Origin: Glycera tridactyla | Taxonomy: Eukaryota | DNA length: 64,000 nt | Direction: 5' to 3' | NCBI GenBank assembly: GCA_965644265.1 | Contig: OZ286477.1 | Span: 51,770,001-51,834,000, forward strand | In this document: positions 1 to 20,057 of the stretch, piece by piece | Position numbering within the stretch: position 1 is the first letter of the stretch | How the letters are laid out: every line of letters begins with the position of its first letter | The notes under the pieces: model-generated | Told to the model about the DNA's origin: nothing | Database searches by the model: none | Seen by the model: only the letters and a program-made list of their open reading frames with translations | Translations under genes and position numbers: made by a program

Positions 1-2
1 GA

Positions 3-1310
3 GGGGATACCGCAAGATATCTTTCGAGCTCCCAGGTCAGAGGCACTGCGGGATCTACCAGAGGCAGTCTTGTTGAATGTAATACCAAGTGTACTTTGGG
101 CAGTCTGACCAAAACTAATACAGGATATCTTTCGGTCAATGAGATTGCAGACAATACAAATCATGCTTCAGACTATCCTGCTGAGGGTATGATAGAACAC
201 CCCTCGGATGGACTGGCCAAAGATGAAGCAGCATATTCTCCAAGCAATGAAACTGAGGGTGGTATGAAAGATCCTTCAAGCAGTGTGTTGGATGATTGTT
301 CAAAACTCCTTTCAGGCAAGCAGGTCAAGGGTCGTACAAAGCATCCCCTTAGTAGTAAATATGATGCAGATAGATACACTGAGGCAAATGGTATCACACA
401 ACAATGTTCAACTAGTCATATCAAAGGGTGCAAAGAAGATCCTGGAGACACGGATGCTGAGGGTGATATAAAATATTTTCATGGTGATATGGAGCATCCT
501 TCTGTCTGTCAGGCGGATATAACCACAGGAGATTCTTCAGGTAGTCATCCCGAAGACATTGACGCTTTGAATAGTGATACAGAACAGCCCCCACGAGGTG
601 CAGCAAAAGATAACCCAAAACATCCTGAAGGCTATCAGGCTCAGGATATTGCAGAACAACTTCCAGGGAATCAGACTGAGGGCTACTCAGGACATCCTGC
701 AGACATCAAAGCTGAGTGTGATATGCAAGCTGCAGACTTTCATGCTGAAGGTAATTGTGAACTTTCAAACATTATTGCTGAGGGTACTGGCAGACATTCG
801 AATAGCCTTACTGCCAATGACTCTCATACCAATTCCCCAAAACCAACTTGCAGACAATGTGGTAAACAATTCAAATTCCTCAAAAGTTTAGACTGGCATA
901 TGGTGAACAAGCATGGGCAAAACATCACCAACGAAACTAAGCTGATTGTATCATTGGTGAAGACTAAAGTACGGCTGGAATGTACTGATGGAATTGGTCA
1001 GCGGAATCGGAAATATTGTGTTTCAGGTCTCGCATCACAATCAACTCAGGAAAGTGCACTCCAAAAACCGAAAACGGGTAATGAGGAGAGACGCAGGGAT
1101 GATGGATATCCCATGTCAGAGGCTGCAGTTGTTCAGCATCAAGACCCAAGGAAACAGAAGACAGAGGAGAATCAAATTGAAGATAGCCCCTTGAAACAAA
1201 CTCACTCAAGACTGAAATTATCATGCTACTGTGATCGAGTTTTCACTGATATGTCTGCATTTGCCAGCCACTTAGAGGAACATGCACTGAACATGAAGCC
1301 CCCAGTGTAA
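3..1310 (+). CDS. 3' part of large C2H2 zinc-finger gene, copy A (5' end outside window)
   Basis: Frame is open from base 3 to TAA at 1308-1310. It is paralogous to the C-terminal ~430 aa of the ORFs at 26197 and 52221, with fingers CRQCGKQFKFLKSLDWHMVNKH and CYCDRVFTDMSAFASHLEEH. Confidence 0.85.
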   Translation, partial: GDTARYLSSSQVRGTAGSTRGSLVECNTKCTLGSLTKTNTGYLSVNEIADNTNHASDYPAEGMIEHPSDGLAKDEAAYSPSNETEGGMKDPSSSVLDDCSKLLSGKQVKGRTKHPLSSKYDADRYTEANGITQQCSTSHIKGCKEDPGDTDAEGDIKYFHGDMEHPSVCQADITTGDSSGSHPEDIDALNSDTEQPPRGAAKDNPKHPEGYQAQDIAEQLPGNQTEGYSGHPADIKAECDMQAADFHAEGNCELSNIIAEGTGRHSNSLTANDSHTNSPKPTCRQCGKQFKFLKSLDWHMVNKHGQNITNETKLIVSLVKTKVRLECTDGIGQRNRKYCVSGLASQSTQESALQKPKTGNEERRRDDGYPMSEAAVVQHQDPRKQKTEENQIEDSPLKQTHSRLKLSCYCDRVFTDMSAFASHLEEHALNMKPPV

Positions 1311-2661: not shown

Positions 2662-2699
2662 CAGGGGTAGTAAATAGGTCTTCTCGTTCTGCATTCACA

Positions 2700-4165: not shown

Positions 4166-5247
4166 CATGGACATAAATTAATTCAGAATCAGCACCCTCT
4201 ACCAGACTGCCCTGTTTCCCTCATCGCTGGTACCTACATCTTAGAACCCATCCCAGTGATATAGCATCTGATAAAGAACCTGAAGTTTCGTCCTTGGGGT
4301 GGGCTATAGGTAGCATAAGTTGTAGGGCATTCATGCGAATTGAATTAGTGCCGTTGCCCTATTAGTGCACCCATCGTTGCCCCAGCAGATACCTTCATCT
4401 TTGTCAATCAATTAATGTTTTCCATAGCTCAGGATGACCCATTTAGGGCATTGCATTACATAGAATCCCCCCTGTATTTTACTGCCGATAAATCCACAGT
4501 CTGATGAAGTCAAAGAAGGTTGAAACAAACAAAATATACCAGTACAGCTCGAAGTAATCAGTGGTCCATCCCGGGTCCATCCCAGGTCAAAGACAGGATT
4601 CGAGTTTCTGTGCCCACTCAGATTGAACTTGAAATGACACCTTGGATTTCCATCAATTTGCAAAATATTTTGCCTCTTTATGGGGCCAAAATATGTGGAA
4701 TCTTGCAACGAATCAACCCATGCATTGGTCAGATCGAAACGTACGGAAGCTGCAGATGAAACATCTATGAGTGCAATTTCAAGTAATACAGTTGTCCATC
4801 TACAGTCTTTGAAGAAATCGAAACCAGATTCGAATCATCCAGAATCTCACTGTGCTGTAGTTCCTTTTGTCTCAGAATCTACAGGAGTGATGCTCACTTG
4901 CAGACTATTGTGAATGTTTATGGTTGTCCATTCACCAATTCAAGGTGGTCTTGAGTGTGCATGTGGAAAGCATCACCAGTAACAGCACTATACATGAAGA
5001 AAGGTACCCAACATGCCAGTTCTTGGCTATTAGAGCTGCATTGAGGTCAGTCGGGAATAGTGATTGCATCTTATATAGGGCATATGTTATCATGAAGCTG
5101 ATCTGGAGTTGCGATTCATATCTTCACGCATTGGGTATTCCTGAACACAGTACATTTGTTTATGCACAATGCATGTATTCAAAGCATTGCTTTCAATCAT
5201 GAGTGTTATCCTTCAGTCACTCACATAGTTGGGTATGTCATTTATAG

Positions 5248-5250
<3 letters not shown>

Positions 5251-5284
<34 letters not shown>
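5251..5284. repeat. (TA)n microsatellite, left flank of LTR element
   Basis: Pure TA run abutting the LTR; homologous to the uninterrupted (TA)n at 58658-58676. Confidence 0.95.
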
Positions 5285-5286
<2 letters not shown>

Positions 5287-6203
5287 GACGGGCTACCGGT
5301 CTGTTGTAGTATATGCTGCGTGGGGCGGTCGAGGGTACGGATCACCAAATTGCTCGCGTTCTCCTACGTTTCTTCCCGATGTCCAATATGCTTACAATAA
5401 ACGATGTGGAGTCCACTTCTTCTTCTTGTGTTTTCACTATGAATGCCTAGTGTTAGAGTGTCACTATATTTCACAAGAGTTCCTGTACGTGGGGGTAAGA
5501 TGTATACGAAATGTATCACAACTCGCTTGAATAGTGATGCATAAAGCAGGCTGTTAAGCTCTACTCAGTGAGGTACTGGATCTTCATGGAGTCGATGTCA
5601 TAGCCGTCTGTCTGGTGGTCCGTCCCCTTCCTTGCCCCTGGGTATAACGTCTGGTAGTGCCCGAATTGCAGTACCCCGATTTCTCGATTTTCTGGGGATT
5701 TTATAGTAAAGTGAGGTATGCCGTTTCTAAGCATATCTCGGCCAATTCTGACGTGTGAGTGGCATGAGTCATATTGGTGACTAATACGGTGTCCGACATG
5801 ATCGGGAGGTGCATTCCTCACCGTCTGGGACCATTTTTGGGTCCCTGAGACCCGGCAGTGCCGAGATATTGACCTACAAAACCTACGTCACTTGACTACA
5901 GTAAATAGGTCAATTTTGACGTAGGACCGGCAATTTGGCTTGTTCAATGCCTTATATAGAATGTTCTTGACCATTTTCCTAGAAATCCGGTGGTTCTGGC
6001 GCTTGTAGCTCGTATGATAGCCGCTACTGCGCTTTGAACGTGGTACCCCCTCTAGGAAGTATTGGTCTATTAATATTTGCAGCATCAGACTGGCCATGGG
6101 CTAAGCCGCGCTCAGTCTTTTGCCCGCTAGCTTTCGTTCCAATCGGACGTATGTATGCTAGCTCTACAGGAATCATATATATCAAGTGAGTGGCTCCATA
6201 ATA
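5281..6203 (-). repeat. 3' LTR (TG...CA core 5286-6198)
   Basis: Direct repeat of 19105-20027 at offset 13824; four substitutions seen by eye, all in the U5-side third. Ends TATTATG...CATAATA. Confidence 0.95.
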
Positions 6204-6207
6204 TATG

Positions 6208-6218
6208 CTCCTGTTTTT
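6208..6218 (-). promoter_or_regulatory. Putative polypurine tract
   Basis: AAAAACAGGAG on the - strand just upstream of the 3' LTR; short and interrupted by one C. Confidence 0.45.
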
Positions 6219-7237
6219 AAGGATTTTAGCCCTCTAAAATAAAAATGAAAAATAATAAAAAATGATGAAAAATGCACAGTTGTTATCATGAAATAAGTAA
6301 AATTATTTTGTGATTTTTGATACCCTTCTTTCCTTATTACTCCTTCTTTAAAGAAGACTGCCCCAGCTGTCTCCATGTCAATTGTATTGTAAAATGTCTC
6401 TGTCTTGTGTGTACCTCCTTTTCGGAGCCGCTCAACCCGAGTAATTTATTTTGATAATACAACAATAAATATATGAATAAATATGTGAATAATACATGCA
6501 TTTTATTCACAACATATGTACGGCATGTCTCAAATCATCGGGTCCAATATTCATACAACATCAGAATTTCACTCATCATGCGTGTCTGCAATCGTGGCGT
6601 ATGTGTTATGCGTGTATACGTGTTTTCATGCTGTATATAACCATTAATAATAGAATTCACACACTACAAATATATTAACAAATCCGACAATTTCGTAATT
6701 TATCAAGAGTGTACCCCGTCGACACATCGAGTTTTCACCAAGACACCGCCTCGAATCCGCAACCGTGATTGGTCTATTCGGATTTGCGCGTGTGTCCGTG
6801 GGGGTAACTTCTTCAAAATTGAAATAATGTACTTGGATTCAATGAAAAACGCCGTCTATGTGGCCAGTTGTCGAGAAACATTCCATATATTTGGTATTTC
6901 CTAACAGAATCATTCCACACTGCAAATATCGTGATAATGATGACTCAATCCTCTTATGGTAGCTGCTAAACTCATTCGTACGCAGCTGATTCATATGTTT
7001 GCCGTCATCACCAGGGAATAAAACTAATGGGTTGTTTGGCACACAACATGTGTAACACATTCATGGTTTCACTTTCGTGACTAATGTTTATACCTTGTGT
7101 CAAACAAGGGTATCTTTGGTGTATATAAACGTCAATGTAGATTCAATTACCATCTGGGGTAATTTATCAACATACCCCACCAAACTTTTCGTGGTATAAT
7201 ACTGCAAGTTTGGAGGCTTGAGTCACACTTTGCAATC

Positions 7238-7513
7238 ATGGACTGCCACTACTGTTTGCTCAAGCTCATATTCGCTGGATTCCATAACGAGAGTTATTTG
7301 CATTGCATAAACGAGACGTCTACTGTTACGCCTATTCTATCTACTGAGCCTCCCCATATGGACAATAACCCGTATGTTTGGATATGGGCAATAATACCAA
7401 TACTATTATTGCTGACCGTGTTCGTCCTCGTCATGTGGCGGGCATATAAGAGGTTCACTATGGGTAAGTACCCCTTTTGTCAGTTAAAGCTGTTAATAAG
7501 TAACAATAAGTAA
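7238..7513 (+). CDS. Antisense (to element) small membrane-protein ORF, probably the first exon of a spliced gene
   Basis: ATG in atcATGg context, N-glycosylation sequons NES and NET, S/T/P-rich stalk, a 21-aa hydrophobic helix VWIWAIIPILLLLTVFVLVMW then RAYKR. Donor G|GTAAGT at 7464 and TATATAAA at 7122-7129. Confidence 0.5.
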   Translation: MDCHYCLLKLIFAGFHNESYLHCINETSTVTPILSTEPPHMDNNPYVWIWAIIPILLLLTVFVLVMWRAYKRFTMGKYPFCQLKLLISNNK

Positions 7514-8154
7514 CTATAAGTACTGATTACCCCTAATCTGTGTTTGTGCATGTGTGTTATCTGGCATGGTGGATGTGATATGGCGGGTATAATCATACTT
7601 GTATATTCAGACTTCTTCAGGATTTGCTTCCGAACTGATCCGACTACTAGCCAGTCGTTCGTACTAATTGTCATTGAAACTATCATCGTTACGAGCGGCT
7701 CGTGCCAATGTCTGTGTTATGACTTGTATATCGGGTTTCACGCGTTACCAGTCAAGCGTGTAGTCGTATCGCCCAGACCTTGCCTGGCTTTCCCGCCGTC
7801 CGTAACATGATCGTTTCACTCTGCGCTGGTTCACTAGTCTCTAGGCGTTGTTGCCGAAACCATGGATCAGCTTCGTATAATAGTAGAAGTCATATCCGGT
7901 ATTTATCTTCTTCGCGCTTGCGAGGCGAGCATGATGAATGCTGAATCGGCCCCCACGGCTGTTCGTAACTCCAATTAGCCGAGGCGATCGTTAGGGCGAT
8001 GTTTGCATTGCTCGCCCAGCAGCATCTACCCATGGGAATAAGTATTAGCACATGTCTCTCAGTGGTAATCTACTTCTCGATCGTATTTCAATGGAAACAA
8101 TTGCTTGTGAAACAGAATAAGTTTAAATGATAAGATGATAAATCGTAAATCCTT

Positions 8155-8568
8155 TTATTGTGGACTAATAGCAGGCCTATTAGTCGTTTGTACCGCGATT
8201 TCCCGTCGTTCCATTATTTCGTAAGAATCCTCATCACTAAATGATGGGGGTGGGGGTATATTCCTTAGAGCTGTTACTAGCGGCTCTATTGCTCGCGGAT
8301 TGGAAATGGGTGGTTGTACCGGCCTTTTTGCGATTTTCTTCCAAGTGGTTTTCTTGTATCTGTATAGAAACCAGCCAGCTATCAATATGGTTGCTAGCAA
8401 CGATACTGTTATTATTAACACAATGAGTATTGTCAACCAGAGACTTCTCTGCTTTCTCTGGTCGGTGTGGATCAGATTGAATGGGTTAAGGGTCCTCCCC
8501 TTTAATATTTCGTCCATCGCTTTATCCAGATCCATTCCAAAAGATATCATATCATCTAGGCCCAACCT
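8155..8568 (-). CDS. env: Env C-terminal segment (TM anchor and cytoplasmic tail), in frame beyond a TAA
   Basis: Same frame as 8569-11013 (GAT TAA AGG TTG). Contains TM LWLTILIVLIITVSLLATILIAGWFLY, basic stop-transfer RYKK, and a YEIM (YxxPhi) motif in the tail. Confidence 0.8.
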   Translation of the reverse strand, partial: RLGLDDMISFGMDLDKAMDEILKGRTLNPFNLIHTDQRKQRSLWLTILIVLIITVSLLATILIAGWFLYRYKKTTWKKIAKRPVQPPISNPRAIEPLVTALRNIPPPPSFSDEDSYEIMERREIAVQTTNRPAISPQ

Positions 8569-11013
8569 TTAATCTTCTGTAGTAATATCCAAGGAAGGTA
8601 TTGGGATGCTATCTATTGATTTCGCATACCTGTTCTTCGTGTATTCTACTAACAAATCCACATTTAGCAGTCTCGATAATGCTGGTATATTTACAGGAAA
8701 ATCGATTTCCTGCGACATTTGTCTGTCCATACATCCATGTATAATAGGTGACACTGACAATGTCCTTCCTTGTCCGTCTGTCAACGTAACCTGACATGCA
8801 CAATCCTGGTTGACCACACAAAATCTACATCCTTCCCTAACCATTAACGCTCTTGTTGGACAACCTATGGAAATGGTTTGAGCATTCATGACCAGCAACC
8901 TGCCTGGAGCCAATGAATGCACATCCATTATATCTTCGTCCATTTCCAGTCGATAGGAACAGTGTTTTGTGATCTTTTCGTTGTCCCCAAGATATAAGCT
9001 CATGGCGCACGTAGGGTGGTAGGTATCATGGATGGTGGTCATTTGTTTGCAATGCACCGTGTGTGATTTAGTACATTGGATGAAGTCCATTTCACTCATT
9101 TCCAAAAACCTAGTATTGTCTATGGATATACCAAAAATCTTGTTGGGGGCCACAGGCCTAGTGACCAAACTTGCATTTAATGTGGCAGGTACGCTGAAAG
9201 TGGTCAGCTTGAATAGTTTGAAACTCGCATCCGTTGAACGTAGAGGAACCGTGATATGTATTACCAGCTTGTTGTTTCTCCATGAGTATTCCGGCTTTGC
9301 ATATTTATAGTATGATGCTGGCCTCATATTCGCAACCCTAAACACAATAAATTCCTTCCTTACGTGCTCATCAAGGTCCACTAATGCCTTAAATAAGTTT
9401 TCCTCCGGTATTATTGTGGAAGATAGCTCATTTCGTAGTAAAGAACGTAGGCCGGTCATGAAATTGTTCATTTCCCTTTCTACGATTGTTAGGTCCTGTA
9501 GCAAGGTGGCTATCATTGAAACTGCGAATGATGTATATTGTACACTCGCATATAGCCTTTTATTGAGATTTTCTATGATCGTTGAAAATTTGGTGTCCAC
9601 GTGGTTAATAGCTTCTCCCATCTTTATGAGATGTTTGTTGTTGGTTTGTGCGAGTGCAACCGCTTGTTTTTGGAAAGTAATAACCTTGTCCGCCATATTG
9701 AACTGATTTTCTTCAATTGTTTTCAATGCTTTGTGTATGTGTTTGGCTTCGTCTTGGGTTACTACGCCAAATAGAGAATTCAGAATTTTTCCTCCAAAAT
9801 TGAACAATCCTCGTTCCTTCCTTCTCTTAGTATCATCCGGATTGTATTCTGTGGCCTTTACTTGCTCTATGATGATTCCCATTTCTCGTATGTCAGTTTC
9901 GGTTGTTTTCATAGCAAATACCACTGAGTCAATCAATTCAATGAAGTCCTTTTCGTCAGACGTGACTTCCGAAGTCTCTCTTCTTTGCCTTCTTCCTTGT
10001 CCTGGTTCCGAAGTCTTGATTCTATTGAGTTGATTTGCGTAGTATGTACGTAATTCATTTGCCATGGCTTGGAATCTATCTGTTAGGTAGTGAACATGAC
10101 CGCATATGTATGCTCCTTGTGATTCCCATTCTGAAGTACCTTTCGTTCCATGTCCTTTGCATTTGCCGTCGTACGCATGCCTTATGTTTCTCAGGCTTCT
10201 CTCAGCTTCTTCTAATGTAACATTCCATCTTCCCCTGATAACTTCAGCAGGCGTTATCCTAGGATCATAGGGGTTTGTAATATTTTCTAATTTGGCTAGG
10301 GCCGTCCCAGCTTCCCATATACCCCTCATAATAATATTGTCCTGTCTTGGAGTATCTTCGACGTATAGAGCTTCTTTTAATGTGTTTAAAGCTGCTTTCA
10401 GTGAAGTGATAGACCTTCCCATTTTTATTTTCTTCATCGTCGTAGATCTTTTCGTTCGGATTCGTGCATTCGCACCGTATTCCCATCGTGCGTTAGTCAT
10501 CATCTCATCTAGTAGATCCATGGATATGGCGGTTCTGGTCGCCTTGATTTCGTTCAAAATTCCTTTTAGATACATACATGTTTCGTTGTTTGTGTCTTCT
10601 TCAATGTTTTCACCTAGACATTGATGCCATTGAAGACACTCTCCATCCTGGTTTGTTGCACATTGAGTATGGTTGTTCACGTCTGTGAACATTGTGGGGA
10701 TGTTCACAATGAACATTAGGTTGAAGGTAGCTGTCGTAGGGATATAGTCACCCTCTATAGGTGAAAAATGAGCCCCATAGTTTAACCTTTCAACAGGATT
10801 CATTCCAGTTGAATCAGGAGAATCTTGGGTTTGGTCGACTTGTTGAGCATTTCCCATAGCTCCACACCATGAGAGTATCATAAGTAGCATCATCAAAGAG
10901 CAATCTTCTCCAATGATTCGTCTTTGATGCCGTCTCGGTTTAATCACCACTGCAACACATAAAGAGGGGATAGGGACCCATAAATTCCTGTGCCTAGGCC
11001 GACTTATTGACAA
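8569..11013 (-). CDS. env: Envelope glycoprotein ectodomain, class I F-type (errantivirus env / baculovirus F-like)
   Basis: Signal-like MMLLMILSWCGAMGNA, RLNYGAHF motif, basic cleavage site KRRKER followed by fusion peptide GLFNFGGKILNSLFG, a heptad-repeat region and a Cys-rich C-terminal domain. The ORF start at 11013 is TTG. Confidence 0.85.
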   Translation of the reverse strand: MSISRPRHRNLWVPIPSLCVAVVIKPRRHQRRIIGEDCSLMMLLMILSWCGAMGNAQQVDQTQDSPDSTGMNPVERLNYGAHFSPIEGDYIPTTATFNLMFIVNIPTMFTDVNNHTQCATNQDGECLQWHQCLGENIEEDTNNETCMYLKGILNEIKATRTAISMDLLDEMMTNARWEYGANARIRTKRSTTMKKIKMGRSITSLKAALNTLKEALYVEDTPRQDNIIMRGIWEAGTALAKLENITNPYDPRITPAEVIRGRWNVTLEEAERSLRNIRHAYDGKCKGHGTKGTSEWESQGAYICGHVHYLTDRFQAMANELRTYYANQLNRIKTSEPGQGRRQRRETSEVTSDEKDFIELIDSVVFAMKTTETDIREMGIIIEQVKATEYNPDDTKRRKERGLFNFGGKILNSLFGVVTQDEAKHIHKALKTIEENQFNMADKVITFQKQAVALAQTNNKHLIKMGEAINHVDTKFSTIIENLNKRLYASVQYTSFAVSMIATLLQDLTIVEREMNNFMTGLRSLLRNELSSTIIPEENLFKALVDLDEHVRKEFIVFRVANMRPASYYKYAKPEYSWRNNKLVIHITVPLRSTDASFKLFKLTTFSVPATLNASLVTRPVAPNKIFGISIDNTRFLEMSEMDFIQCTKSHTVHCKQMTTIHDTYHPTCAMSLYLGDNEKITKHCSYRLEMDEDIMDVHSLAPGRLLVMNAQTISIGCPTRALMVREGCRFCVVNQDCACQVTLTDGQGRTLSVSPIIHGCMDRQMSQEIDFPVNIPALSRLLNVDLLVEYTKNRYAKSIDSIPIPSLDITTED
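10950..10975 (-). promoter_or_regulatory. Putative env splice acceptor
   Basis: - strand CCCTATCCCCTCTTTATGTGTTGCAG|TGGTG, a pyrimidine tract plus TTGCAG, upstream of the env signal peptide. Confidence 0.6.
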
Positions 11014-11549
11014 TATAATGTATATTATAATTGTCTAGAACCTTTCTAATAGACTGTGATGTAGTGTAGGGCGTTGTCATACAACAAGGATAATCATAAA
11101 ATTTTTATATAAATTCATGATTTCTACTGTGTGTTTTGGATCCGTTTCAATTGAATGTCGGCCTAATGCGGCATTTTTACAGGTTCCCTATTTCTCCCTA
11201 TTTATCATAGGCGTTTGCCTTTCTTCTTTGCTCATTGTGTTTACTGTCTCTTTTGGTGGCAACCGCTCCGGCTGACCAATACCTTTCGCGCGTCCGCGTT
11301 TCTTCACGTTTGGTGAATCCACACCTTGACTTGTATATTTTCTGATACTCTCTCGTAATTCCCTGAGCTCCATTTGCTCGAAGCTGCTCCATCATTTGTT
11401 AATATGGGGAGGTATGAGGTTACCTCCCTCTTATCCCGCCTCTTGGGCTCCCATGGGACCTTCAGGCTCACTCTGGGCTTGCTCACCCCTTTACCCCTGA
11501 TTTTCATCAGTTGTAAATCTTACTTCGAAGAGGCAACATCTATTTCACC

Positions 11550-11936
11550 ATGTCTTCCCAAAACATCGTAGTAGCTTGCATTAGCCAGTTCTGCTCCAAC
11601 GGGATTGTTGGAGTTCATTATGACGAGGAGCGAAGGGAGCTCCGTATCTATAGTGGTCGAGTTTCCACAAGTTATGACGACCACATTCTAGACGAAATTC
11701 GAAATTTCATCAGAACAAGGGAGATAGTGGGGTACTACTTTGATCAGGAACAATGTCGTGCCTCTCTTATCGTCAGGTTCAATGGTGGCATTGTCCTTAA
11801 CAATGCCAGAGCCGGTGCCTATAGGCACAACGATGGGTGCTCCAATTCTTCTGAGGGGCACGAACATGAGCCTGATAGCCATGACCCAGAAACTCCCCTT
11901 GTTTCGAATCAGAATCCCAGAAGGGTTCCTGTTTGA
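11550..11936 (+). CDS. Antisense accessory ORF (128 aa) between pol and env, unknown function
   Basis: caccATGt start; it is the first ATG after an acceptor-like CCCCTGATTTTCATCAG (AG 11509-11510). Globular-looking N-terminal ~85 aa; does not overlap pol or env. Confidence 0.5.
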   Translation: MSSQNIVVACISQFCSNGIVGVHYDEERRELRIYSGRVSTSYDDHILDEIRNFIRTREIVGYYFDQEQCRASLIVRFNGGIVLNNARAGAYRHNDGCSNSSEGHEHEPDSHDPETPLVSNQNPRRVPV

Positions 11937-12070
11937 ATGTGGCCGAATTTCGTTCACAGAAACTCAGCACCACGTATAGTGGTGCGTCCCAACAACTTGT
12001 CCCGTTCTGAGGGACGCAACATCGTTGGTCGAGAGGTAAGTGTCCTTTTTATATTCCCTTTTTGTCTTTA

Positions 12071-15000
12071 TTATCGTGCTTTCAGCTCCTTCAGCATCTT
12101 CCTCTTCTCTACACGAGCATTGTAGTCTCTTATGTGTTCTATTGGTACGATATCCGCCCGTAGCCATGTAGGCTTCTTGTCGCGCCACTCGCACATGTAT
12201 GAAACCTTTCCATTCTTCGTTGTGGACGTTATGACTTTTACTAGTTTCGACATGTCTTGTTTGTTCGTCTTACCGCTATTCTTTGGTTTGAAGCTGATTT
12301 CTGGATCAGTACTGACTGTATCTGTGTTTGACCTATTGTTTCTTTGCGCATGTTCTTTATTTACAAATGTTCTGTCTCGCTTTCGTCGCCTGGTTACAGG
12401 CGGTATGTTCGGAAGGGTAGAAGTTTCAGATTTCACACTTTCTTTGTCTTTTTCTCTTTGTGATTCTGCATTTTTCTCTCTTTCTTCTGTATTTTGCGTA
12501 TTTCCAATTGTCCGCTCCGGATTTGCATTCTGTCCGTCCTTCTCGGTCCTTTCGGTCCCTCTTAGGGTAGAATCAGCCTCCGGTGTGAATTTCTTTAACC
12601 TATTTTCTGGTATCAAGTGTTTGAGGGTGTGGTTATTGATACGTAGTAGGTGGAAACCTGGCTTCGGAGTTGAGACTATGATGAAAGGCCCCTCGTATTT
12701 CTGGCTAACTTTGTATTGAGAGGGAATCCTAGGGGTTACTATTTTTGCCCAAACCATATCTCCTGGTTTGAAACCTTTGTATGTAACCTTCTTGGATGTG
12801 TCGTGGCGCATTTTCATGTTTTCCGCATTTTTCCTGGCATTTCTGGCTGCTATGTGTCGTATAGCCATTAAATCAGACCATAATGAAGGGAAAACTTCCT
12901 GTGGTGGGACATCTCGAATTAATGGAGGTTCTTTCGTTATGTCACCGGAGAGAGTTGGTTCCAAACCATACATGATTTCGTAGGGCGCAAATCCGTGAGA
13001 CTTGATAGAGATGTCATGAGACCAACGAACATGAGGCAAAAATTCAGTCCATGATTTTTCAGGAAATTCCATCATACATGCTCGTAGTGAGCAAAGAATA
13101 CTAGAATGTAGTCGTTCTACTGCTGCATTGGCTTGAGGGTGCCAGGAGGTAATATACTGTAGTTTGATACTAAATTGTTCTGCCAAGTATTGGAAGGTTT
13201 TAGACGTGTGAGCTGCTGCTCTGTCTAATACGACCACCTTCGGAGGTCCAAATCGTTGAATCCACATTTTCATAAAATATGTAGCCAGGGTTTCAGCCTT
13301 TTCATTTGGAATAGTTTCAATCTCAAAGTGTTTTGAAAATCTGTCTACGATAACAAGTACTTTCAGGTTCTTATCTTTCGTTGGTGCAACCTTCAAGACA
13401 TCCATGTGTATCACTTCAAATAATGAAGCTGGTGGTCTTAATAAAAGGGGTGTCCTCTTATTATTGTAGTCCCTTTTAGCTTGACCGCAGGCTTTACAGC
13501 TAGCCACAAATTTAGCTAAGTCTTCGTACATCCCTGGCCAGTAGAATCGTTGCCGAACGATTTGTAGTAGACTGTTGAAACCTCTGTGAGATCCATGTGT
13601 TCCATGGTGGAAGAGTGCTGCTATTGCATACCTTCTATCATGTGGTAAGTATATTTGGTGAAATGTCTTATTGTTCGTATTGTCGTGGAATTTTCGGCAT
13701 AAAACTCCGGAATTCGTAAGCAAATATTTGTCCTCCTCTGCCATGATTTTTCTTGCATGAGCCAGAGTCTCTGGCAGAGATTTATTCAATTTGTATTGAT
13801 ATAGGAATGCCGAGTCTCTGTCATTGGCTTGTTCCAGTGCCATTTTTCTTTCGTCTATCATATATTCTGTATACAACTCGATGCAAGCGGTTTCATCCAG
13901 TAGTAAGGCTTCCTCGTATGAAATATCATCTGAATCCTCCAGGCCCAGTTGTTTTTCTTCTTTGTCGTATGGTGAATCACCCTCACTGTCGGCTATGTGT
14001 TCGATATCCGTCTCGGACATAACGTTCCCATCAGCGTCTTTCCCGCTGCTGGTACACGATTCTTCCGCGTGGCGGCGAGCGTCTCGCTGGGGGCCGGTTT
14101 TGGCGGGAAAGGTGGGCGTGGCACTTTTCTCTCTTTGACCATGCTGTTTATCCGTTGTGTCGAACATATTGAATCGCCGCTCTCTTGCTTCACACTCAGA
14201 TGAATCTATTTCATTGCTGGGCTTGTATGGCTTTGTCCTGATTCCCATTAAACACTCCTTCTTCGTTATTGGTGATTCCAAGAATTCTGTAGTATTGATA
14301 AGACAATGGTTGTCACCTTCTTCATCCATTGATAACATGGGTTGTTCCACGTAGGTTATTCTAGATAAGGTGTCAGCTACAACATTTTCTTTGCCTGGTT
14401 TGTGCAGTACACGGATATTGAATTTATTCAAAAACATTTTATAACGAAAGAGCCTGCCGGTTTTAGTGGCCAGATTGTGTAAATATACGTTTGTCAAATT
14501 ATCAGAAAATACTGTTATATCTGTTTGAGAGCCCAACATTAATTCACATTGTTTCAATGATTCTACGAGTGCTAGGGCTTCCTTTTCATTCGAATGGTAA
14601 TTTGCTTGTGATGGATTTAATGTCTTCGATATAAATGCTACAGGTCTGACTATATTTTCTTCATCTTCCTGCGATATAACTGCGCCTACTGCCCTACCGC
14701 TAGCATCTAGGTATACTGTAAATGGCTTGGCAGGGTCAGGATAGTATAATACCGCATTTTGCAGAAGGGAGGTTTTTATACTGTCTAATGCTTCCTGGCA
14801 TTCCTCGGTCCAGATAAATTCATGATCTTTCTGTAGGAGTTTGTTTATTGGTGCAGCTATGGCCGCATATCCTCTCACAAATCTACGATAAAAGTTGAGC
14901 GTACCCATCAACTGTCTGACTTCTTTGACATTATTAGGGGCTGGGAGCTTTATTAACGCTCCTAATTTGTTAGGATCGGCCTTTACCCCATCTTTGTTGA

Positions 15001-16192
15001 AAATATATCCCAGATATTTAACCTCGGATTTCATAAACATGGCCTTTGATGGCGATATTCGTAGTCCCACTTGTCTAAGTCTCCACAGAAGTTGACTCAT
15101 AACTTCTAAATGTTTTTCATATGTAGGGGTTGTAACAATAATATCGTCCATATATGATGTGACGTATTTTGAGTCCAAAGTAGCTAAACACCTAGAAATG
15201 ATGCTAGAAAATATTTCTGGGCTTGAATTTAGGCCCATAGGTGTCTTCGTAAAGGTGTATTTTGCATTGCTAGTATTTATCGTACAGATATCAATACTGT
15301 CTGGTGCCAATTGAACTGCATAGAATGCTGAAGCCAGATCGACTACGGAGAAGACCTTGTTTTTCCCTGCCGCTAAAGTGGCTATGATATCGTTAATTGT
15401 TGGTATTGGTGATTTTGAGGGTACTATCATTTTGTTCAAATTGGAAAAATCAACCACTAATCTGGGTTTGATGGGTTTACCATCATCATACTTGTATACT
15501 ACGAAGGTGGGTACACCCCACATAGAATGTGATGGTTTCAATATTCCTGCCTCTACTAACCTTTGAATTTGTTCATCTAAGTCTTTCTCTTGCTGTGGAG
15601 GTAACTTGTATGCTCTCTGATTCACAACAGTTGCTTCTGGCTTTAGTTCTATCCTATGATATACATCTCTTATGACTGCCAACTCGCTCAGGTCTACGGC
15701 AAATGCCTCTCTATTATTATCTAGAATAGATAATAATTCTTCTCTATACTCGTCAGCCGCAGGTTCCAACGATAATATATCGTCCCAAACGATAGGTTTG
15801 AAAGTTCGAATCCTAGTCTGGTTCGAGATGTCTACTTCTGTTTGAGTTGATATTTCTCTACTGTTATCGTTTTCTTCCTCCACAACGAAAGGGGCAGAAT
15901 AGTCCTGCCGTGGCCATAATACTTGTAATGAGTTTATTTGTTCACCGCTACATGGAAGTGGCGCTGATGGTCTCGCTAATGCGGACCGTTCGCCTACGTA
16001 TACAGAACCTGGCATTCCTCTCTCATTAGATATAGGTCTGGCCAAGTGGGCTTGCGCAATGGTAATCTGCGCATCTGAATCTATATATACGTTCTTTGAA
16101 GTTGGATTCGAAACAATATCAGGAATGTATTCTTCTGGCTTCTGAAGGCAATCCCCGGAACCGTCGATAGTTGTGGGGTATTCTTGACTATT
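12071..16192 (-). CDS. pol: Pol: reverse transcriptase, RNase H, integrase, chromodomain-like C-terminus
   Basis: RLVVDFSNLN, VDLASAF, YMDD (15143-15154); RNase H YLDAS...EKEALA...FSDN; HHCC, D-D-E and KYEGPF in integrase; C-terminal VKVI...GKVSYMCEWRDKKPTW (12122-12247). Frame is open from 16192. Confidence 0.95.
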   Translation of the reverse strand, partial: NSQEYPTTIDGSGDCLQKPEEYIPDIVSNPTSKNVYIDSDAQITIAQAHLARPISNERGMPGSVYVGERSALARPSAPLPCSGEQINSLQVLWPRQDYSAPFVVEEENDNSREISTQTEVDISNQTRIRTFKPIVWDDILSLEPAADEYREELLSILDNNREAFAVDLSELAVIRDVYHRIELKPEATVVNQRAYKLPPQQEKDLDEQIQRLVEAGILKPSHSMWGVPTFVVYKYDDGKPIKPRLVVDFSNLNKMIVPSKSPIPTINDIIATLAAGKNKVFSVVDLASAFYAVQLAPDSIDICTINTSNAKYTFTKTPMGLNSSPEIFSSIISRCLATLDSKYVTSYMDDIIVTTPTYEKHLEVMSQLLWRLRQVGLRISPSKAMFMKSEVKYLGYIFNKDGVKADPNKLGALIKLPAPNNVKEVRQLMGTLNFYRRFVRGYAAIAAPINKLLQKDHEFIWTEECQEALDSIKTSLLQNAVLYYPDPAKPFTVYLDASGRAVGAVISQEDEENIVRPVAFISKTLNPSQANYHSNEKEALALVESLKQCELMLGSQTDITVFSDNLTNVYLHNLATKTGRLFRYKMFLNKFNIRVLHKPGKENVVADTLSRITYVEQPMLSMDEEGDNHCLINTTEFLESPITKKECLMGIRTKPYKPSNEIDSSECEARERRFNMFDTTDKQHGQREKSATPTFPAKTGPQRDARRHAEESCTSSGKDADGNVMSETDIEHIADSEGDSPYDKEEKQLGLEDSDDISYEEALLLDETACIELYTEYMIDERKMALEQANDRDSAFLYQYKLNKSLPETLAHARKIMAEEDKYLLTNSGVLCRKFHDNTNNKTFHQIYLPHDRRYAIAALFHHGTHGSHRGFNSLLQIVRQRFYWPGMYEDLAKFVASCKACGQAKRDYNNKRTPLLLRPPASLFEVIHMDVLKVAPTKDKNLKVLVIVDRFSKHFEIETIPNEKAETLATYFMKMWIQRFGPPKVVVLDRAAAHTSKTFQYLAEQFSIKLQYITSWHPQANAAVERLHSSILCSLRACMMEFPEKSWTEFLPHVRWSHDISIKSHGFAPYEIMYGLEPTLSGDITKEPPLIRDVPPQEVFPSLWSDLMAIRHIAARNARKNAENMKMRHDTSKKVTYKGFKPGDMVWAKIVTPRIPSQYKVSQKYEGPFIIVSTPKPGFHLLRINNHTLKHLIPENRLKKFTPEADSTLRGTERTEKDGQNANPERTIGNTQNTEEREKNAESQREKDKESVKSETSTLPNIPPVTRRRKRDRTFVNKEHAQRNNRSNTDTVSTDPEISFKPKNSGKTNKQDMSKLVKVITSTTKNGKVSYMCEWRDKKPTWLRADIVPIEHIRDYNARVEKRKMLKELKAR

Positions 16193-17004
16193 TCATATGA
16201 AATATCTAAGGAATCTGGTTCTTTCATGTAATTTGGGGTTATTGTATTCTCACTGTCAGCAGTCATATCGATATGGCAAGAGATCATTGCGGTCTCCATA
16301 GGTTTCATAATCGTGGAATCTGAAGCTTTCAATATATATGAGCATTCCCTTATAGTTGTCATCAATACGCTGGTGATACCTCCTTCTAAATGCAATCTGC
16401 TCTCTGAATAGTCAATTTTCGCCTTTGTTTGCTGGAGAAATGGTACACCTAGGATGACTTGTAAGGGTATGGCTTCCACTACGAGGAATCTGACTAATAT
16501 TTCCTTACTATTAATAGTTATGGGAATACTCACTGATCCTATCACTTTCATTTTCTGTGCCTGCGCATCGTATAGTTCTACCTCGTGTTTCGTATCTATT
16601 TCTCTCCTCAAATCTAACTGTTTCAGAATGTCTTCTGTGATAAGATTAGTTGTAGCCCCTGTATCTATCATAGCCGCTATTTGTGTATGTTTGATATATA
16701 TTTTAATAGAGTTAAGTGTACCCAACTTCTGACGTATTCGATTCCTATCACCTGTAGAGAGCGTCAATGATGAATTAACCGTTTCTCTTTTTGTTATGTT
16801 TTCATCATGTATTCCTCTGACACTATACACATGCCTACTACTGTTTTCTACATTACTGCCACTACTAATATTTTTCTTATAAAATTTCACTACAAATTCT
16901 AACAGATCGCAATGATCAGGGAGCGTATGCTCACAATCTATCCCTAATGGACAATCTACCCAGTTAAATGCACTCGTGACCCTATTTACGACATGCCCTC
17001 TATC
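16081..17004 (-). CDS. pro: Aspartic protease segment (same frame as gag, after TAG) with the start of a dUTPase-like relic
   Basis: AMIDTGAT (DTGA 16654-16665) and VILGVPFL. The frame opens directly after the TAG at 17005-17007 and overlaps the pol frame (-1) at 16084-16192. Confidence 0.9.
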   Translation of the reverse strand, partial: DRGHVVNRVTSAFNWVDCPLGIDCEHTLPDHCDLLEFVVKFYKKNISSGSNVENSSRHVYSVRGIHDENITKRETVNSSLTLSTGDRNRIRQKLGTLNSIKIYIKHTQIAAMIDTGATTNLITEDILKQLDLRREIDTKHEVELYDAQAQKMKVIGSVSIPITINSKEILVRFLVVEAIPLQVILGVPFLQQTKAKIDYSESRLHLEGGITSVLMTTIRECSYILKASDSTIMKPMETAMISCHIDMTADSENTITPNYMKEPDSLDISYEIVKNTPQLSTVPGIAFRSQKNTFLILFRIQLQRTYI

Positions 17005-17247
17005 CTAGTGAGAAAAAGGGTTTTTTGACCCTGCATTTCCTGTCGGCCTTGGTCCCTGGGGAGTGTAACCCTGGGAATAGCCTTGGGAATATCCTTGAGA
17101 ATATCCCTGCTGATTTTGCCCATTATATTGTTGGCCTTGAGAATTAAATTGTCCCATGGTCTGGGTCTCTCTTACTCTATTAATGGCTTGAGCCATAAAT
17201 CCGTCATGATGCTGAGGATTAGTAATGTTGACATACGCCTTCATTAC
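17005..17247 (-). CDS. Gag C-terminal Q/G/Y/N-rich tail, in frame after TAA
   Basis: TTC TAA GTA ATG keeps the gag frame; contains (QGYS)3 repeats and ends GSKNPFSH-TAG. Confidence 0.6.
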   Translation of the reverse strand, partial: VMKAYVNITNPQHHDGFMAQAINRVRETQTMGQFNSQGQQYNGQNQQGYSQGYSQGYSQGYTPQGPRPTGNAGSKNPFSH

Positions 17248-19077
17248 TTAGAAACAATTATTTGATGTATGCCCTGGCTTTAAACATGCTTCACAGACAG
17301 GTGTATTTTTATCTATTTTCTTATTATAATTATTATATGTTCCAGGCCCAGGCGTGCCCCAGGAGGGAGGACCGGACGACGAGTTCGAACTCTGAGTCAA
17401 ACTGGTGAGTCTCTTTTTACAGTCCCTTGCTATATGGCCTATCTTACCACAATGGTAGCATGTGATTTTTCTTCTAGTTTCTTGGTCCCCTATTGGTCCA
17501 TTATTTATTAACTCCCTTATTGCGTTCAAAAGTTCTTTGTTTTCGGGAGGTTCTTTCTCCTGTTTCTGAGGGACCTTTTGGTCCTCTTCCCTTTCTTTTA
17601 TTATTGGCGTAGTCGATATGGCTGCTACTTTGTCCGTTAATTGCTGCATTTGTTCTGGTAAACTGGATAGTGCCTCTGAACTGGGCAATCTTTTATCCAA
17701 TTTATCCATTACTACACTGATAGTCGCATCCATTGTTGACTCCGTAGCTATTTCTTCTAAATTTCCAGCAGTTTCTGCTGCTTCTAATACTGAATCCACG
17801 GTTAATGGATTTGCCATCAGCATGTAGTTTTTAGCAACTGGGTTCAACCCTGATAATATAATACTTTTGTATTCACCAAATTGCGCCTGATTAAAGGCTT
17901 GCCCTTGTTTCAATTTGAATAAAAACCTACATTTATTCACTATCCTCATACAAAATTGTTTAGGTGTTTGTGCTGCACCTTGTTTGGTTTTGTACAATTT
18001 AGCCCTAAAGGCAGGCTCACTGTTTCCTTGTACACAGTATTCTGCAAGGAATCTTCTTTCTATTTCCTCGAAAGAAGTGTCTTTTGTCACATGGACAGTG
18101 GAGTACCATTGCTTCACTGAGTCACTAAGGTTAAATGGAAAGTGTCTGACCTTTTCATAGTCAGACAGTCCGTGTAATGCACAGTATTCATTGAATAGGT
18201 CCAACCATTCAATGGGATTGTTTTTGGCTTGAAATTGCTGTACCTTGACTAGACTCTTATCCTTCACTACGAAGGTATGTTGAGCTTGTGGCATAAAATT
18301 CGGTGGTTGTGTAGAAGGTGGGCCATGGATGGCCATGTTATGTTCCACCAGTCCTGTTTTGGGACGGGTACCTGCCCCTAATGGGACGTCCCTAGGCGTG
18401 CTTGTCCTTGCACCAAAAGATGTGTGATTAATATTCGACAAAAATGGATCATAAGTTTCTGGTATATTGTATGTGTAGCGAGGGGGAGGGTAATATGCAT
18501 TGTCAAAAGAATGTAATTCACCTGTTCTCTTTTGAGATGGGTTTCTTCTCGTGAATTCCCCTGGCGTGATTCCTTGATTCATATTCTCCTGTGTCATAAT
18601 CCCTGTATTTCTGCTTTCTTGTAGTGTAATCCCTGAATTTCCTTTTTCTTGTGGTGTAATTCCTAAATTCCTGTTTCCCTTTTGTTTCAGAGCCTTCGAA
18701 AGCCGTCTATCCACAATATCCCGTACGGACTCCTCATCGTCACCATCATCACTGCTTAGATCCCCACCATCCTCTGCTTCCGTGTCCTCTTCATCGTCTT
18801 CTTCAGCCGCTTTTTCCCGATCTTCTTCATTTTGCCGCTTGTCAACGTCTTCTGCAGCTTCTTCGCCATCTTTTCCTGCAATTTCTTGATTTTTGGACAA
18901 TTCTTTCCCTGCTTTCTTCGTATTTTCGTCATCAGACATGCTTGCCTGCGCTGCTTGACTTTTAAATGTCACCTCACCGCTACTATCACCTTCCATATCG
19001 CCTAGCTCTCCTCCTCCAGCCCGAACGATCGTCGTCGAACGTGGCGTGTCCGTATACGCTTTAGAAGTCTGTTCCAT
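17248..19077 (-). CDS. gag: Gag
   Basis: Acidic N-terminus, capsid-like PIEWLDLF...QWY region, two CX2CX4HX4C knuckles (CYHCGKIGHIARDC, CEACLKPGHTSNNC), PPPRY at 18475-18489, and four 10-aa repeats (N-x-GI-x-x-[Q/G]E) near 18560-18680. Confidence 0.9.
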   Translation of the reverse strand: MEQTSKAYTDTPRSTTIVRAGGGELGDMEGDSSGEVTFKSQAAQASMSDDENTKKAGKELSKNQEIAGKDGEEAAEDVDKRQNEEDREKAAEEDDEEDTEAEDGGDLSSDDGDDEESVRDIVDRRLSKALKQKGNRNLGITPQEKGNSGITLQESRNTGIMTQENMNQGITPGEFTRRNPSQKRTGELHSFDNAYYPPPRYTYNIPETYDPFLSNINHTSFGARTSTPRDVPLGAGTRPKTGLVEHNMAIHGPPSTQPPNFMPQAQHTFVVKDKSLVKVQQFQAKNNPIEWLDLFNEYCALHGLSDYEKVRHFPFNLSDSVKQWYSTVHVTKDTSFEEIERRFLAEYCVQGNSEPAFRAKLYKTKQGAAQTPKQFCMRIVNKCRFLFKLKQGQAFNQAQFGEYKSIILSGLNPVAKNYMLMANPLTVDSVLEAAETAGNLEEIATESTMDATISVVMDKLDKRLPSSEALSSLPEQMQQLTDKVAAISTTPIIKEREEDQKVPQKQEKEPPENKELLNAIRELINNGPIGDQETRRKITCYHCGKIGHIARDCKKRLTSLTQSSNSSSGPPSWGTPGPGTYNNYNKKIDKNTPVCEACLKPGHTSNNCF

Positions 19078-19092
19078 TGTATCATCGACAGC

Positions 19093-19102
19093 TTCTCCAC
19101 CA
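19093..19102 (-). promoter_or_regulatory. Primer-binding site, tRNA-Ala type
   Basis: TGGTGGAGAA lies 2 nt inside the 5' LTR end and is complementary to the ...TTCTCCACCA 3' end known for animal tRNA-Ala. Confidence 0.75.
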
Positions 19103-19104
19103 TA

Positions 19105-20027
19105 TATTATGACGGGCTACCGGTCTGTTGTAGTATATGCTGCGTGGGGCGGTCGAGGGTACGGATCACCAAATTGCTCGCGCTCTCCTACGTTTCTTCC
19201 CGATGTCCAATATGCTTACAATAAACGATGTGGAGTCCACTTCTTCTTCTTGTGTTTTCACTATGAATGTCTAGTGTTAGAGTGTCACTATATTTCACAA
19301 GAGTTCCTGTACGTGGGGGTAAGATGTATACGAAATGTAACACAACTCGCTTGAATAGTGATGCATAAAGCAGGCTGTTAAGCTCTACTCAGTGAGGTAC
19401 TGGATCTTCATGGAGTCGATGTCGTAGCCGTCTGTCTGGTGGTCCGTCCCCTTCCTTGCCCCTGGGTATAACGTCTGGTAGTGCCCGAATTGCAGTACCC
19501 CGATTTCTCGATTTTCTGGGGATTTTATAGTAAAGTGAGGTATGCCGTTTCTAAGCATATCTCGGCCAATTCTGACGTGTGAGTGGCATGAGTCATATTG
19601 GTGACTAATACGGTGTCCGACATGATCGGGAGGTGCATTCCTCACCGTCTGGGACCATTTTTGGGTCCCTGAGACCCGGCAGTGCCGAGATATTGACCTA
19701 CAAAACCTACGTCACTTGACTACAGTAAATAGGTCAATTTTGACGTAGGACCGGCAATTTGGCTTGTTCAATGCCTTATATAGAATGTTCTTGACCATTT
19801 TCCTAGAAATCCGGTGGTTCTGGCGCTTGTAGCTCGTATGATAGCCGCTACTGCGCTTTGAACGTGGTACCCCCTCTAGGAAGTATTGGTCTATTAATAT
19901 TTGCAGCATCAGACTGGCCATGGGCTAAGCCGCGCTCAGTCTTTTGCCCGCTAGCTTTCGTTCCAATCGGACGTATGTATGCTAGCTCTACAGGAATCAT
20001 ATATATCAAGTGAGTGGCTCCATAATA
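19105..20027 (-). repeat. 5' LTR (TG...CA core 19110-20022)
   Basis: Direct repeat of 5281-6203, adjacent to the PBS and gag. Confidence 0.95.
19776..19782 (-). promoter_or_regulatory. Candidate LTR TATA box
   Basis: TATATAA on the - strand (also at 5952-5958 in the 3' LTR); motif match only. Confidence 0.4.
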
Positions 20028-20057
20028 TATATATATATATATATTTATATATACATA

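What the first reader, a model, noticed from the sequence alone, without database searches (positions are those of the whole stretch)
7122..7810. Antisense spliced gene for a small glycosylated membrane protein between env and the 3' LTR
Seen: TATATAAA (7122), a Kozak ATG (7238), two sequons, a stalk, a clean TM helix with a basic stop-transfer, a GTAAGT donor (7464), CCTAAT (7532), a ~70-nt AG-free zone, then acceptors at 7610 and 7620. Splicing to 7611 joins ORF 7544-7810 in frame (141 aa total). The region is not antisense to a long ORF, so the hydrophobicity is not a shadow effect. Established: complex retroviruses encode small membrane accessory proteins and antisense genes (HIV Vpu, HTLV-1 HBZ). 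Inference: a candidate accessory protein, for example for superinfection exclusion or immune modulation.
Basis: partly seen in the sequence, partly recalled or inferred. Interest (0 to 1): 0.75.

Follow-up and report, generated by a model that had tools for sequence, protein, structure and literature searches.

The report
Swappable antisense membrane gene in retroelement
A virus-like jumping gene of an animal carries, on its opposite strand, a real and conserved gene for a small membrane protein that exists as very different interchangeable versions, which hints at a conflict with the host, but the second exon proposed for it does not code for protein.

Summary
The gene is real; the proposed 141-aa spliced product is not. 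The locus lies in a young env-bearing Ty3/gypsy element (minus strand, LTRs 99.6% identical). Exon 7238-7463 is intact in 163 of 175 copies examined. Its length changes keep frame (92 of 94), dN/dS is about 0.15-0.17 in diverged pairs, and Cys3/Cys6, two sequons, the TM helix, basic patch and phase-1 donor are kept. Exon 2 (7611-7810) is non-coding: the frame after that acceptor is random (11/11/10 in 32 representatives). The better promoter candidate is TATAATA at 7195 with an initiator-like CA 30 nt on, not 7122. Unexpectedly, the exon is a sharply bounded cassette: copies 95-98% identical in LTR, env and downstream DNA carry alleles only 29-37% identical in protein. A second conserved antisense gene (11550-12035) lies between pol and env. 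No homologue of either protein was found outside this genome. No RNA evidence for the junction was found, and the true acceptor is unknown. Best reading: an N-out accessory glycoprotein that engages a host membrane factor and is kept as divergent alleles; function is inferred, not shown.

The parts
5278..6206 (-). 3' LTR of the element (929 bp, 4 differences from the 5' LTR); carries a conserved plus-strand donor-like GTRAGT at 6186
   Evidence: GTRAGT in 83 of 88 aligned copies
6961..6989 (.). Conserved upstream motifs including CAGCTG (E-box-like; label recalled), candidate enhancer
   Evidence: 7-mers kept in about 95% of 131 copies against a median of 45%
7122..7129 (+).
   Evidence: 40 of 131 copies, 81 read TATACAAA
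7195..7227 (+). Candidate antisense core promoter: TATAATA (7195-7201) and initiator-like CA (A at 7225)
   Evidence: Most conserved of 465 upstream 7-mers (96%); TATAATA in 145 of 155 copies; first CA[C/T/A] at +29 to +32 in 147 of 151. Transcription start inferred
7238..7463 (+). Coding exon of the antisense membrane protein (75 codons + 1 nt): Cys/His head with helix 4-15, sequons N17 and N25, S/T/P-rich stalk, TM helix, basic patch. Exchangeable allelic cassette
7376..7438 (+). Predicted transmembrane helix (about residues 47-67)
   Evidence: KD19 maximum median 2.86 in 125 copies; AlphaFold helix 47-74, pLDDT about 91 for residues 51-70
7464..7469 (+). Phase-1 splice donor GTAAGT
   Evidence: GTRAGT in 130 of 131, 23 of 24 and 20 of 20 copies; codon positions frozen where other synonymous sites vary
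7609..7610 (+). Candidate acceptor AG (unproven); yields no conserved reading frame
   Evidence: AG within 2 columns in 32 of 36 representatives, as for several other AGs; frames 11/11/10
7520..7860 (.). Highly conserved non-coding stretch that contains the proposed exon 2
   Evidence: diversity 0.07-0.10 without codon pattern; 88 of 100 length changes in 7611-7810 shift frame; folding z -0.4 to -2.8
8100..8150 (+). Region of a candidate poly(A) signal in relatives; no canonical AATAAA in this subfamily
   Evidence: AATAAA at ATG+840..960 in 107 of 155 copies, 1 of 32 in the window's subfamily; 3 of 20 in a slightly different window
8155..11034 (-). env, baculovirus F-like; this copy has a premature stop at 8569-8571
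   Evidence: Pfam Baculo_F E 1.1e-13; stop in 1 of 40 close copies
11550..12041 (+). Second antisense gene in the pol-env gap: 162 codons ending at a phase-0 GTRAGT donor (12036); this copy has a stop at 11934-11936
   Evidence: third-position diversity 0.38 against 0.01-0.04; model alpha-beta-beta twice, pLDDT 73
12071..16192 (-). pol: RT, RNase H, integrase in Ty3/gypsy order
16081..19116 (-). gag (zinc knuckle) and protease frame; stop at 17248-17250 private to this copy, stop at 17005-17007 shared by most copies
19102..20030 (-). 5' LTR

Best explanation
The element is a 'complex' env-bearing Ty3/gypsy element with two accessory genes on its antisense strand. SHOWN by comparison: 7238-7463 is a protein-coding exon under purifying selection, ends at a conserved splice donor, and is exchanged between near-identical backbones as deeply diverged alleles. 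INFERRED: it is transcribed from its own internal TATA/initiator promoter (7195/7225); antisense orientation lets a gene with its own promoter, donor and poly(A) site ride in the genomic RNA without being spliced out or cutting it short; the product is a 76-aa core plus a short dispensable tail, inserted N-out/C-in without a signal peptide, N-glycosylated, with a disulfide-linked Cys head. MOST LIKELY ROLE (inferred): a Vpu-like adaptor in the secretory pathway or at the cell surface that binds a host restriction or immune membrane protein through its variable stalk and TM helix. Rare alleles are favoured, so old alleles persist and are shuffled by template switching during reverse transcription.
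For: Intact in 125 of 131, 19 of 24 and 19 of 20 copies. 92 of 94 length changes are multiples of 3, against 12 of 86 upstream and 12 of 76 in the putative intron. dN/dS 0.15-0.17 in bins with pS 0.3-0.74, env 0.12-0.15. C3 and C6 in 163 of 163, third Cys in 161, two or more sequons in 158, one allele class having its second sequon at N20. 3-5 basic residues after the TM in 159 of 163. Cassette edges at the ATG and just past the donor: 95-100% identity before 7238, 53-63% inside, 93-98% after 7598 in L198. In 20 copies picked through the second gene, median identity to the window is 0.98 (LTR), 0.59 (exon), 0.98 (downstream), 0.95-0.97 (env); protein identity 29-37%. That allele class has at least 28 identical copies, so two alleles are expanding at the same time. 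Head is the most constrained part (pN 0.13), stalk and TM the least (pN 0.30-0.36, dN/dS 0.31-0.38).
Against: No transcript, junction, protein or partner is shown. No region has dN/dS above 1, so positive selection is not shown; the case for conflict rests on the allele structure. The second antisense gene has equally high four-fold divergence (0.41 vs 0.42; env 0.19-0.24, pol 0.16; 14 loci, 16 sites per pair in exon 1) with an almost invariant protein, so part of the divergence may have a nucleotide-level cause. The window's subfamily lacks a canonical poly(A) signal. Nearest pairs have dN/dS 0.67, as expected from decay after insertion. Copies are related, so counts are not independent events; 155 copies were found by likeness to the ORF.
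Confidence: 0.45

Rival explanations
1. Self/non-self or superinfection exclusion between element variants: the protein blocks entry or assembly of particles in an allele-specific way, and rare types win.
For: Discrete coexisting allele classes (10 at 65% identity among 163 proteins), N-out topology, position beside env, tandem duplicates of the gene in three loci.
Against: Alleles do not track env: Spearman 0.44-0.51 with env segments against 0.68-0.88 among env segments, and env is 95-97% identical under alleles that are 59% identical. Env N-terminal third was not included in that test.
Confidence: 0.2
2. CM2/M2-like small oligomeric channel or virion membrane component that aids packaging, env maturation or uncoating.
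For: Same plan as influenza C CM2: type III, three ectodomain Cys, N-glycan (PMC3617168 passages). Weak Pfam CM2 hit in 1 of 35 members (E 0.026); Flu_M2 cluster at 0.85 in the Atlas, a lead only.
Against: 14.5 bits against a cut-off of 27; TM almost wholly apolar and freely variable between alleles; ectodomain twice as long; antisense expression; a housekeeping role does not explain divergent alleles.
Confidence: 0.13
3. sORF2/FAST-like cell-cell fusogen for soma-to-germline transfer.
For: Small, single TM, N-out, basic patch and an N-terminal helix, as described for sORF2 (PMC11952523 passages).
Against: Gly2 in only 2 of 155 copies; antisense, whereas all sORF2 candidates were forward; the element has its own F-type env; two glycans and a mucin-like stalk on the ectodomain.
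Confidence: 0.08
4. The protein is a real but sequence-tolerant accessory factor, and the deep alleles are kept by selection on the nucleotide sequence (for example escape from small-RNA silencing of the antisense mRNA) or by simple recombination with old lineages.
For: Both antisense exons show about twice the four-fold divergence of env and pol, although the second protein barely changes.
Against: Exon 1 also differs at amino-acid level down to 29-37% and has sharp edges; conserved flanks on the same transcript are not diversified.
Confidence: 0.2
5. One reading: a 141-aa protein from the 7463|7611 junction with a functional 66-aa tail.
For: Open in 27 of 31 intact copies of the youngest subfamily; AG at 7609-7610 in 115 of 125.
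Against: Tails of 5-173 aa across copies, 88 of 100 length changes shift frame; frames 11/11/10 and no third-position excess (0.21/0.19/0.22).
Confidence: 0.05
6. Chance ORF in a non-coding 3' region.
For: No homologue outside this genome; no RNA support.
Against: Frame-keeping indels, low dN/dS, kept Cys, sequons and donor across saturated synonymous divergence.
Confidence: 0.02

Closest known systems
Metazoan errantiviruses with F-type env (PMC13524379; passages seen)
   Same: Ty3/gypsy pol, LTRs, Baculo_F-like env.
   Different: The main text has 0 occurrences of 'antisense' or 'accessory'; this family adds two antisense genes. The supplements listing the elements were not read.
[quoted passage not shown]
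   Same: Conserved antisense accessory ORF between pol and the 3' LTR, with its own upstream promoter in Grande.
   Different: Those proteins are nuclear or TRP28/SMC-domain; this is a small membrane glycoprotein in an env-bearing animal element, with a splice donor and exchangeable alleles.
MDG1-group sORF1/sORF2 and FAST proteins (PMC11952523; passages)
   Same: Two small accessory genes per element, one soluble and one single-TM with a basic patch.
   Different: sORF2 is forward, mostly myristoylated, in env-less elements; here antisense, Gly2 in 2 of 155, glycosylation sites kept, env present.
Influenza C CM2 (PMC3617168; passages)
   Same: Type III topology, three ectodomain Cys, N-glycosylation.
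   Different: Pfam score below cut-off, longer stalk, no long conserved tail; likeness of plan only.
HIV-1 Vpu and HTLV-1 HBZ (Vpu recalled; HBZ from a passage and recall)
   Same: Vpu: small N-out single-pass accessory protein. HBZ: spliced antisense gene.
   Different: Vpu is sense with almost no ectodomain; HBZ is nuclear and LTR-driven. No sequence likeness was found.

Membership tests
env-bearing Ty3/gypsy (errantivirus-like), the element | gag-protease-RT-RNase H-integrase order between LTRs | tested here: met
env-bearing Ty3/gypsy (errantivirus-like), the element | F-type or gB-type env | tested here: met
   Baculo_F E 1.1e-13, above cut-off
env-bearing Ty3/gypsy (errantivirus-like), the element | Placement in the published pol phylogeny | not tested
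   no tree with reference elements was built
sORF2/FAST-like | Single TM, N-out, polybasic patch | tested here: met
   predicted only
sORF2/FAST-like | N-myristoylation motif (Gly2) | tested here: not met
   2 of 155 copies; the paper notes that non-myristoylated variants exist
sORF2/FAST-like | Forward orientation relative to gag-pol | tested here: not met
sORF2/FAST-like | Cell-cell fusion activity | not testable with these tools
   needs expression assay
Influenza C CM2 (PF03021) | Profile score above cut-off (27 bits) | tested here: not met
   14.5 bits in 1 of 35 members
Influenza C CM2 (PF03021) | Three ectodomain Cys and N-glycan site | tested here: met
   pattern only; spacing 3/6/23 against 1/6/20
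Influenza C CM2 (PF03021) | Disulfide-linked oligomer and channel activity | not testable with these tools
Plant antisense aORF-3R (Retand/Grande) | [quoted passage not shown] | tested here: met
Plant antisense aORF-3R (Retand/Grande) | TRP28 (PF04195) or other nuclear domain | tested here: not met
   no such Pfam hit for either antisense protein
HBZ-type antisense gene | Transcribed from the 3' LTR and spliced to an acceptor before the ORF | tested here: inconclusive
   LTR donor 6186 in 83 of 88 and AG just before the ATG in 98 of 151, but no AG within 15 nt in 42 of 151; the internal TATA element is more widely kept

The most novel reading that the evidence does not exclude
An animal Ty3/gypsy lineage has become a 'complex' retrovirus-like element with an antisense accessory module of two intron-bearing genes, one of which is a multi-allelic surface glycoprotein held under frequency-dependent selection by a host immune or restriction factor (or by competition among sibling elements). 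Its serotype-like alleles are swapped among active copies within one genome.
Probability: 0.4. Interest if true: 0.88.

Novelty: new variant of a known kind. Interest (0 to 1): 0.76.

Why it matters
Accessory genes are thought of as a feature of complex vertebrate retroviruses, and antisense ORFs of LTR elements are known mainly from plants with nuclear products. This family shows a selected antisense membrane glycoprotein, plus a second antisense gene, in an env-bearing animal gypsy element. The coexistence of alleles 30-60% identical in backbones 95-98% identical points to an active conflict at one small gene and gives a ready natural allele series for finding the host factor. It also suggests that surveys which look only at forward ORFs miss such genes.

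Tried and rejected
RNA: no RNA holder listed. Contigs of runs X1, X2, X3 (type guessed as RNA) and X5 gave no joint at 7463|7611 and little cover of 7129-7589 at 80% likeness; contigs cannot show absence. Homologue searches for the membrane protein were blank: word-seeded profile, proteins of 39-135 aa only; full HMMER search of 1.84 billion representatives; Atlas leads 0.90 or lower, recognition below threshold; Pfam none above cut-off; Foldseek viral best E 8.6. Second antisense protein: blank; best VIA Z 3.7, best viral E 0.017; this does not show a new fold. Rfam: two chance-level hits. Folding of 7610-7860 in 5 copies: z -0.4 to -2.8, inconclusive. Search for a conserved coding acceptor exon: none in 7480-9900, none convincing in 9840-19400 (5 or so of 15 fetched stretches there were not homologous and blur that alignment). 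Fusion of exon 1 to the second gene: spacing to its ATG is not frame-conserved. Earlier scan findings: nothing. Loci dropped: L142, L146, L151 (no match to the window); also L147-L150 from the four-fold comparison; 31 of 125 loci lacked a usable env stretch; pairs with pS of 0.74 or more were left out of the dN/dS bins.

Full report
Setting. The finding lies in a minus-strand LTR element. LTRs are at 5278-6206 and 19102-20030, with 4 differences in 929 bp, and TA repeats flank both ends. Pfam gives a gag zinc knuckle, protease, RT, RNase H, integrase and a baculovirus-F-like env (E 1.1e-13), so it is an env-bearing Ty3/gypsy element. The genome is 2.04 Gb; searches returned about 500 first-look candidates each, which are lower bounds and not copy numbers. 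This copy has premature stops in gag, env and the second antisense gene that the compared copies mostly lack.

Observation.

Exon 1 is a gene. I aligned 131 copies found by DNA or protein likeness. 125 of 131 are intact from ATG to donor. 92 of 94 length changes are multiples of three, against 12 of 86 upstream, 12 of 76 in the putative intron and 12 of 100 in the proposed exon 2. Mismatch by codon position is 0.26/0.19/0.45. Pairwise dN/dS is 0.15-0.17 where pS is 0.3-0.74, close to env (0.12-0.15); the closest pairs give 0.67; pairs are not independent and saturated pairs were left out. 24 more distant hits (LTR 76-96% identical where matched) keep the gene at the same place, 19 intact. To reduce ascertainment bias I took 20 loci found through the second antisense gene and chosen because they were absent from the earlier hit lists: 20 of 20 carry a homologue at the same place, 19 intact. 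Among 163 intact proteins, C3 and C6 are invariant, a third Cys is present in 161, two or more sequons in 158 and 3-5 basic residues follow the TM in 159. AlphaFold gives helices 4-15 and 47-74 with a disordered stalk (mean pLDDT 65). N-out/C-in topology is inferred from the basic patch (positive-inside rule, established knowledge) and the kept sequons.

The donor is real at nucleotide level; exon 2 is not coding. GTRAGT follows the exon in 130 of 131, 23 of 24 and 20 of 20 copies. The third positions inside it are frozen (130 of 131 and 131 of 131) while conserved codons elsewhere vary; six copies change the amino acid and keep the donor; the base after +6 is free. In contrast, splicing to 7611 gives tails of 5-173 aa, the 66-aa form in 27 of 125. 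Among 36 representatives thinned at 93%, frames are 11/11/10 with 4 lacking the AG, and there is no third-position excess. The AG at 7610 is the first well-kept AG (32 of 36), but several later AGs are kept as well, so the acceptor is open; I put about 0.45 on 7610. Unspliced tails are 5-17 aa. Either way the conserved protein is the 76-aa core.

Promoter and 3' end. TATAATA at 7195 is the most conserved of 465 upstream 7-mers (96%; median 45%; 7122 62%), with CA at +29 to +32 in 147 of 151 copies. That spacing fits a TATA-initiator pair (established knowledge). An LTR-driven spliced alternative is not excluded (donor 6186 in 83 of 88; AG before the ATG in 98 of 151). AATAAA lies just before the env stop in 107 of 155 copies but in 1 of 32 of this subfamily and 3 of 20 of the later set, which counts against a universal site.

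The exon is an exchangeable cassette. It is the diversity peak of 5270-9900 (0.29-0.34 against 0.07-0.10 just downstream). Among 1613 of 3643 pairs with LTR distance under 0.04, 983 differ by more than 0.25 in the exon. Its distances correlate least with the other segments (Spearman 0.34-0.60). The 20 independently found copies have median identity to the window of 0.98 (LTR), 0.59 (exon), 0.98 (7610-7860) and 0.95-0.97 (env), and protein identity of 29-37%. In L196 and L198 the drop starts at the ATG and ends shortly after the donor; in L190 it includes the promoter region. There are 10 classes at 65% identity. One distant class has at least 28 identical copies, while the window's class has 31 hits at 87-100%, so both are recent. 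Three loci carry tandem duplicates. Against a simple arms-race reading: no region exceeds dN/dS 1, and the second antisense gene has the same raised four-fold divergence with a nearly fixed protein.

Second antisense gene. 11550-12035 encodes 162 codons ending at a phase-0 GTRAGT donor. It is open to the donor in 14 of 18 aligned copies including the window (the window copy and three distant copies are broken). The 150 scored hits to its first 87 aa are 98-100% identical. The model is a compact alpha-beta-beta repeat (pLDDT 73) with no clear match.

Expression. Not shown. No run was listed as RNA. Contigs showed no 7463|7611 joint. One contig of X1 (depth 3, 23-base side, run type guessed) skips 17404-18689 with GT..AG ends on the plus strand, and both ends are kept in the homologous copies: a weak hint of antisense splicing in a relative.

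Mechanism. Shown: coding exon, donor, cassette exchange. Inferred: internal antisense promoter, type III topology, glycosylation, and a role against a host membrane factor (0.45). Rivals: allele-specific exclusion (0.2), nucleotide-level diversification of a tolerant protein (0.2), CM2-like channel (0.13), fusogen (0.08). The diversification rival can hold together with the others.

Comparison and novelty. Antisense accessory ORFs are described in plant gypsy elements (PMC7264820, parts 1-2 of 3 read; PMC11963269, passages). Small TM accessory genes are described in forward orientation in MDG1 elements (PMC11952523, passages) and bdelloid elements (PMC5408684, passages). The errantivirus survey (PMC13524379, passages) has no occurrence of 'antisense' or 'accessory'; PMC12992720 uses 'antisense' only for piRNA clusters (passages). 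CM2 features come from PMC3617168 (passages). Seven literature searches listed no antisense membrane-protein gene in an animal gypsy element; the library lacks most subscription papers, and I did not read the supplements of PMC13524379, which may list this family. Vpu features are recalled. Verdict: new variant of a known kind, interest 0.76.

Noticed in passing
window 11550-12041 (+): Second conserved antisense gene between pol and env, 162 codons, near-invariant 90-aa domain with no known relative, ending at a conserved donor; an initiator-like TCA[G/C]TT lies about 37 nt upstream.
   Followed up: partly
window 17404 and 18690 (+): Donor-like and acceptor-like sites antisense to gag, kept in homologous copies and joined in one contig of run X1.
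   Followed up: partly
window 7520-7860: Non-coding stretch as conserved as the LTR core (diversity 0.07-0.10); possible packaging or export element of the genomic RNA; folding signal modest.
   Followed up: partly
L167 (three copies, 2.5 kb apart), L168 (two, 628 bp), L169 (two, 902 bp): Tandem duplications of the antisense gene with its promoter, in L167 together with the env 3' part.
   Followed up: no
window 5250-5277 and 20031-20056: Element sits in a TA microsatellite, and its LTR ends are short inverted repeats without the usual TG...CA look; may be target-site specific.
   Followed up: no
window 17005-17007 and 16081-16192 (-): A stop between gag and protease is shared by most aligned copies, and protease and pol overlap in different frames: suggests readthrough plus frameshift expression.
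   Followed up: no
window 12071-12250 (-): pol C-terminus looks chromodomain-like by eye (recalled resemblance); Pfam gave no such hit.
   Followed up: no
window 1-5250 and 20200-64000: The host DNA is a tandem array with a period of about 13 kb, copies mostly 85-100% alike, into which the element inserted.
   Followed up: no
env of L002-L029: Env segments vary in a mosaic way among the youngest copies (81-98% protein identity in the segment tested), another sign of recombination.
   Followed up: no
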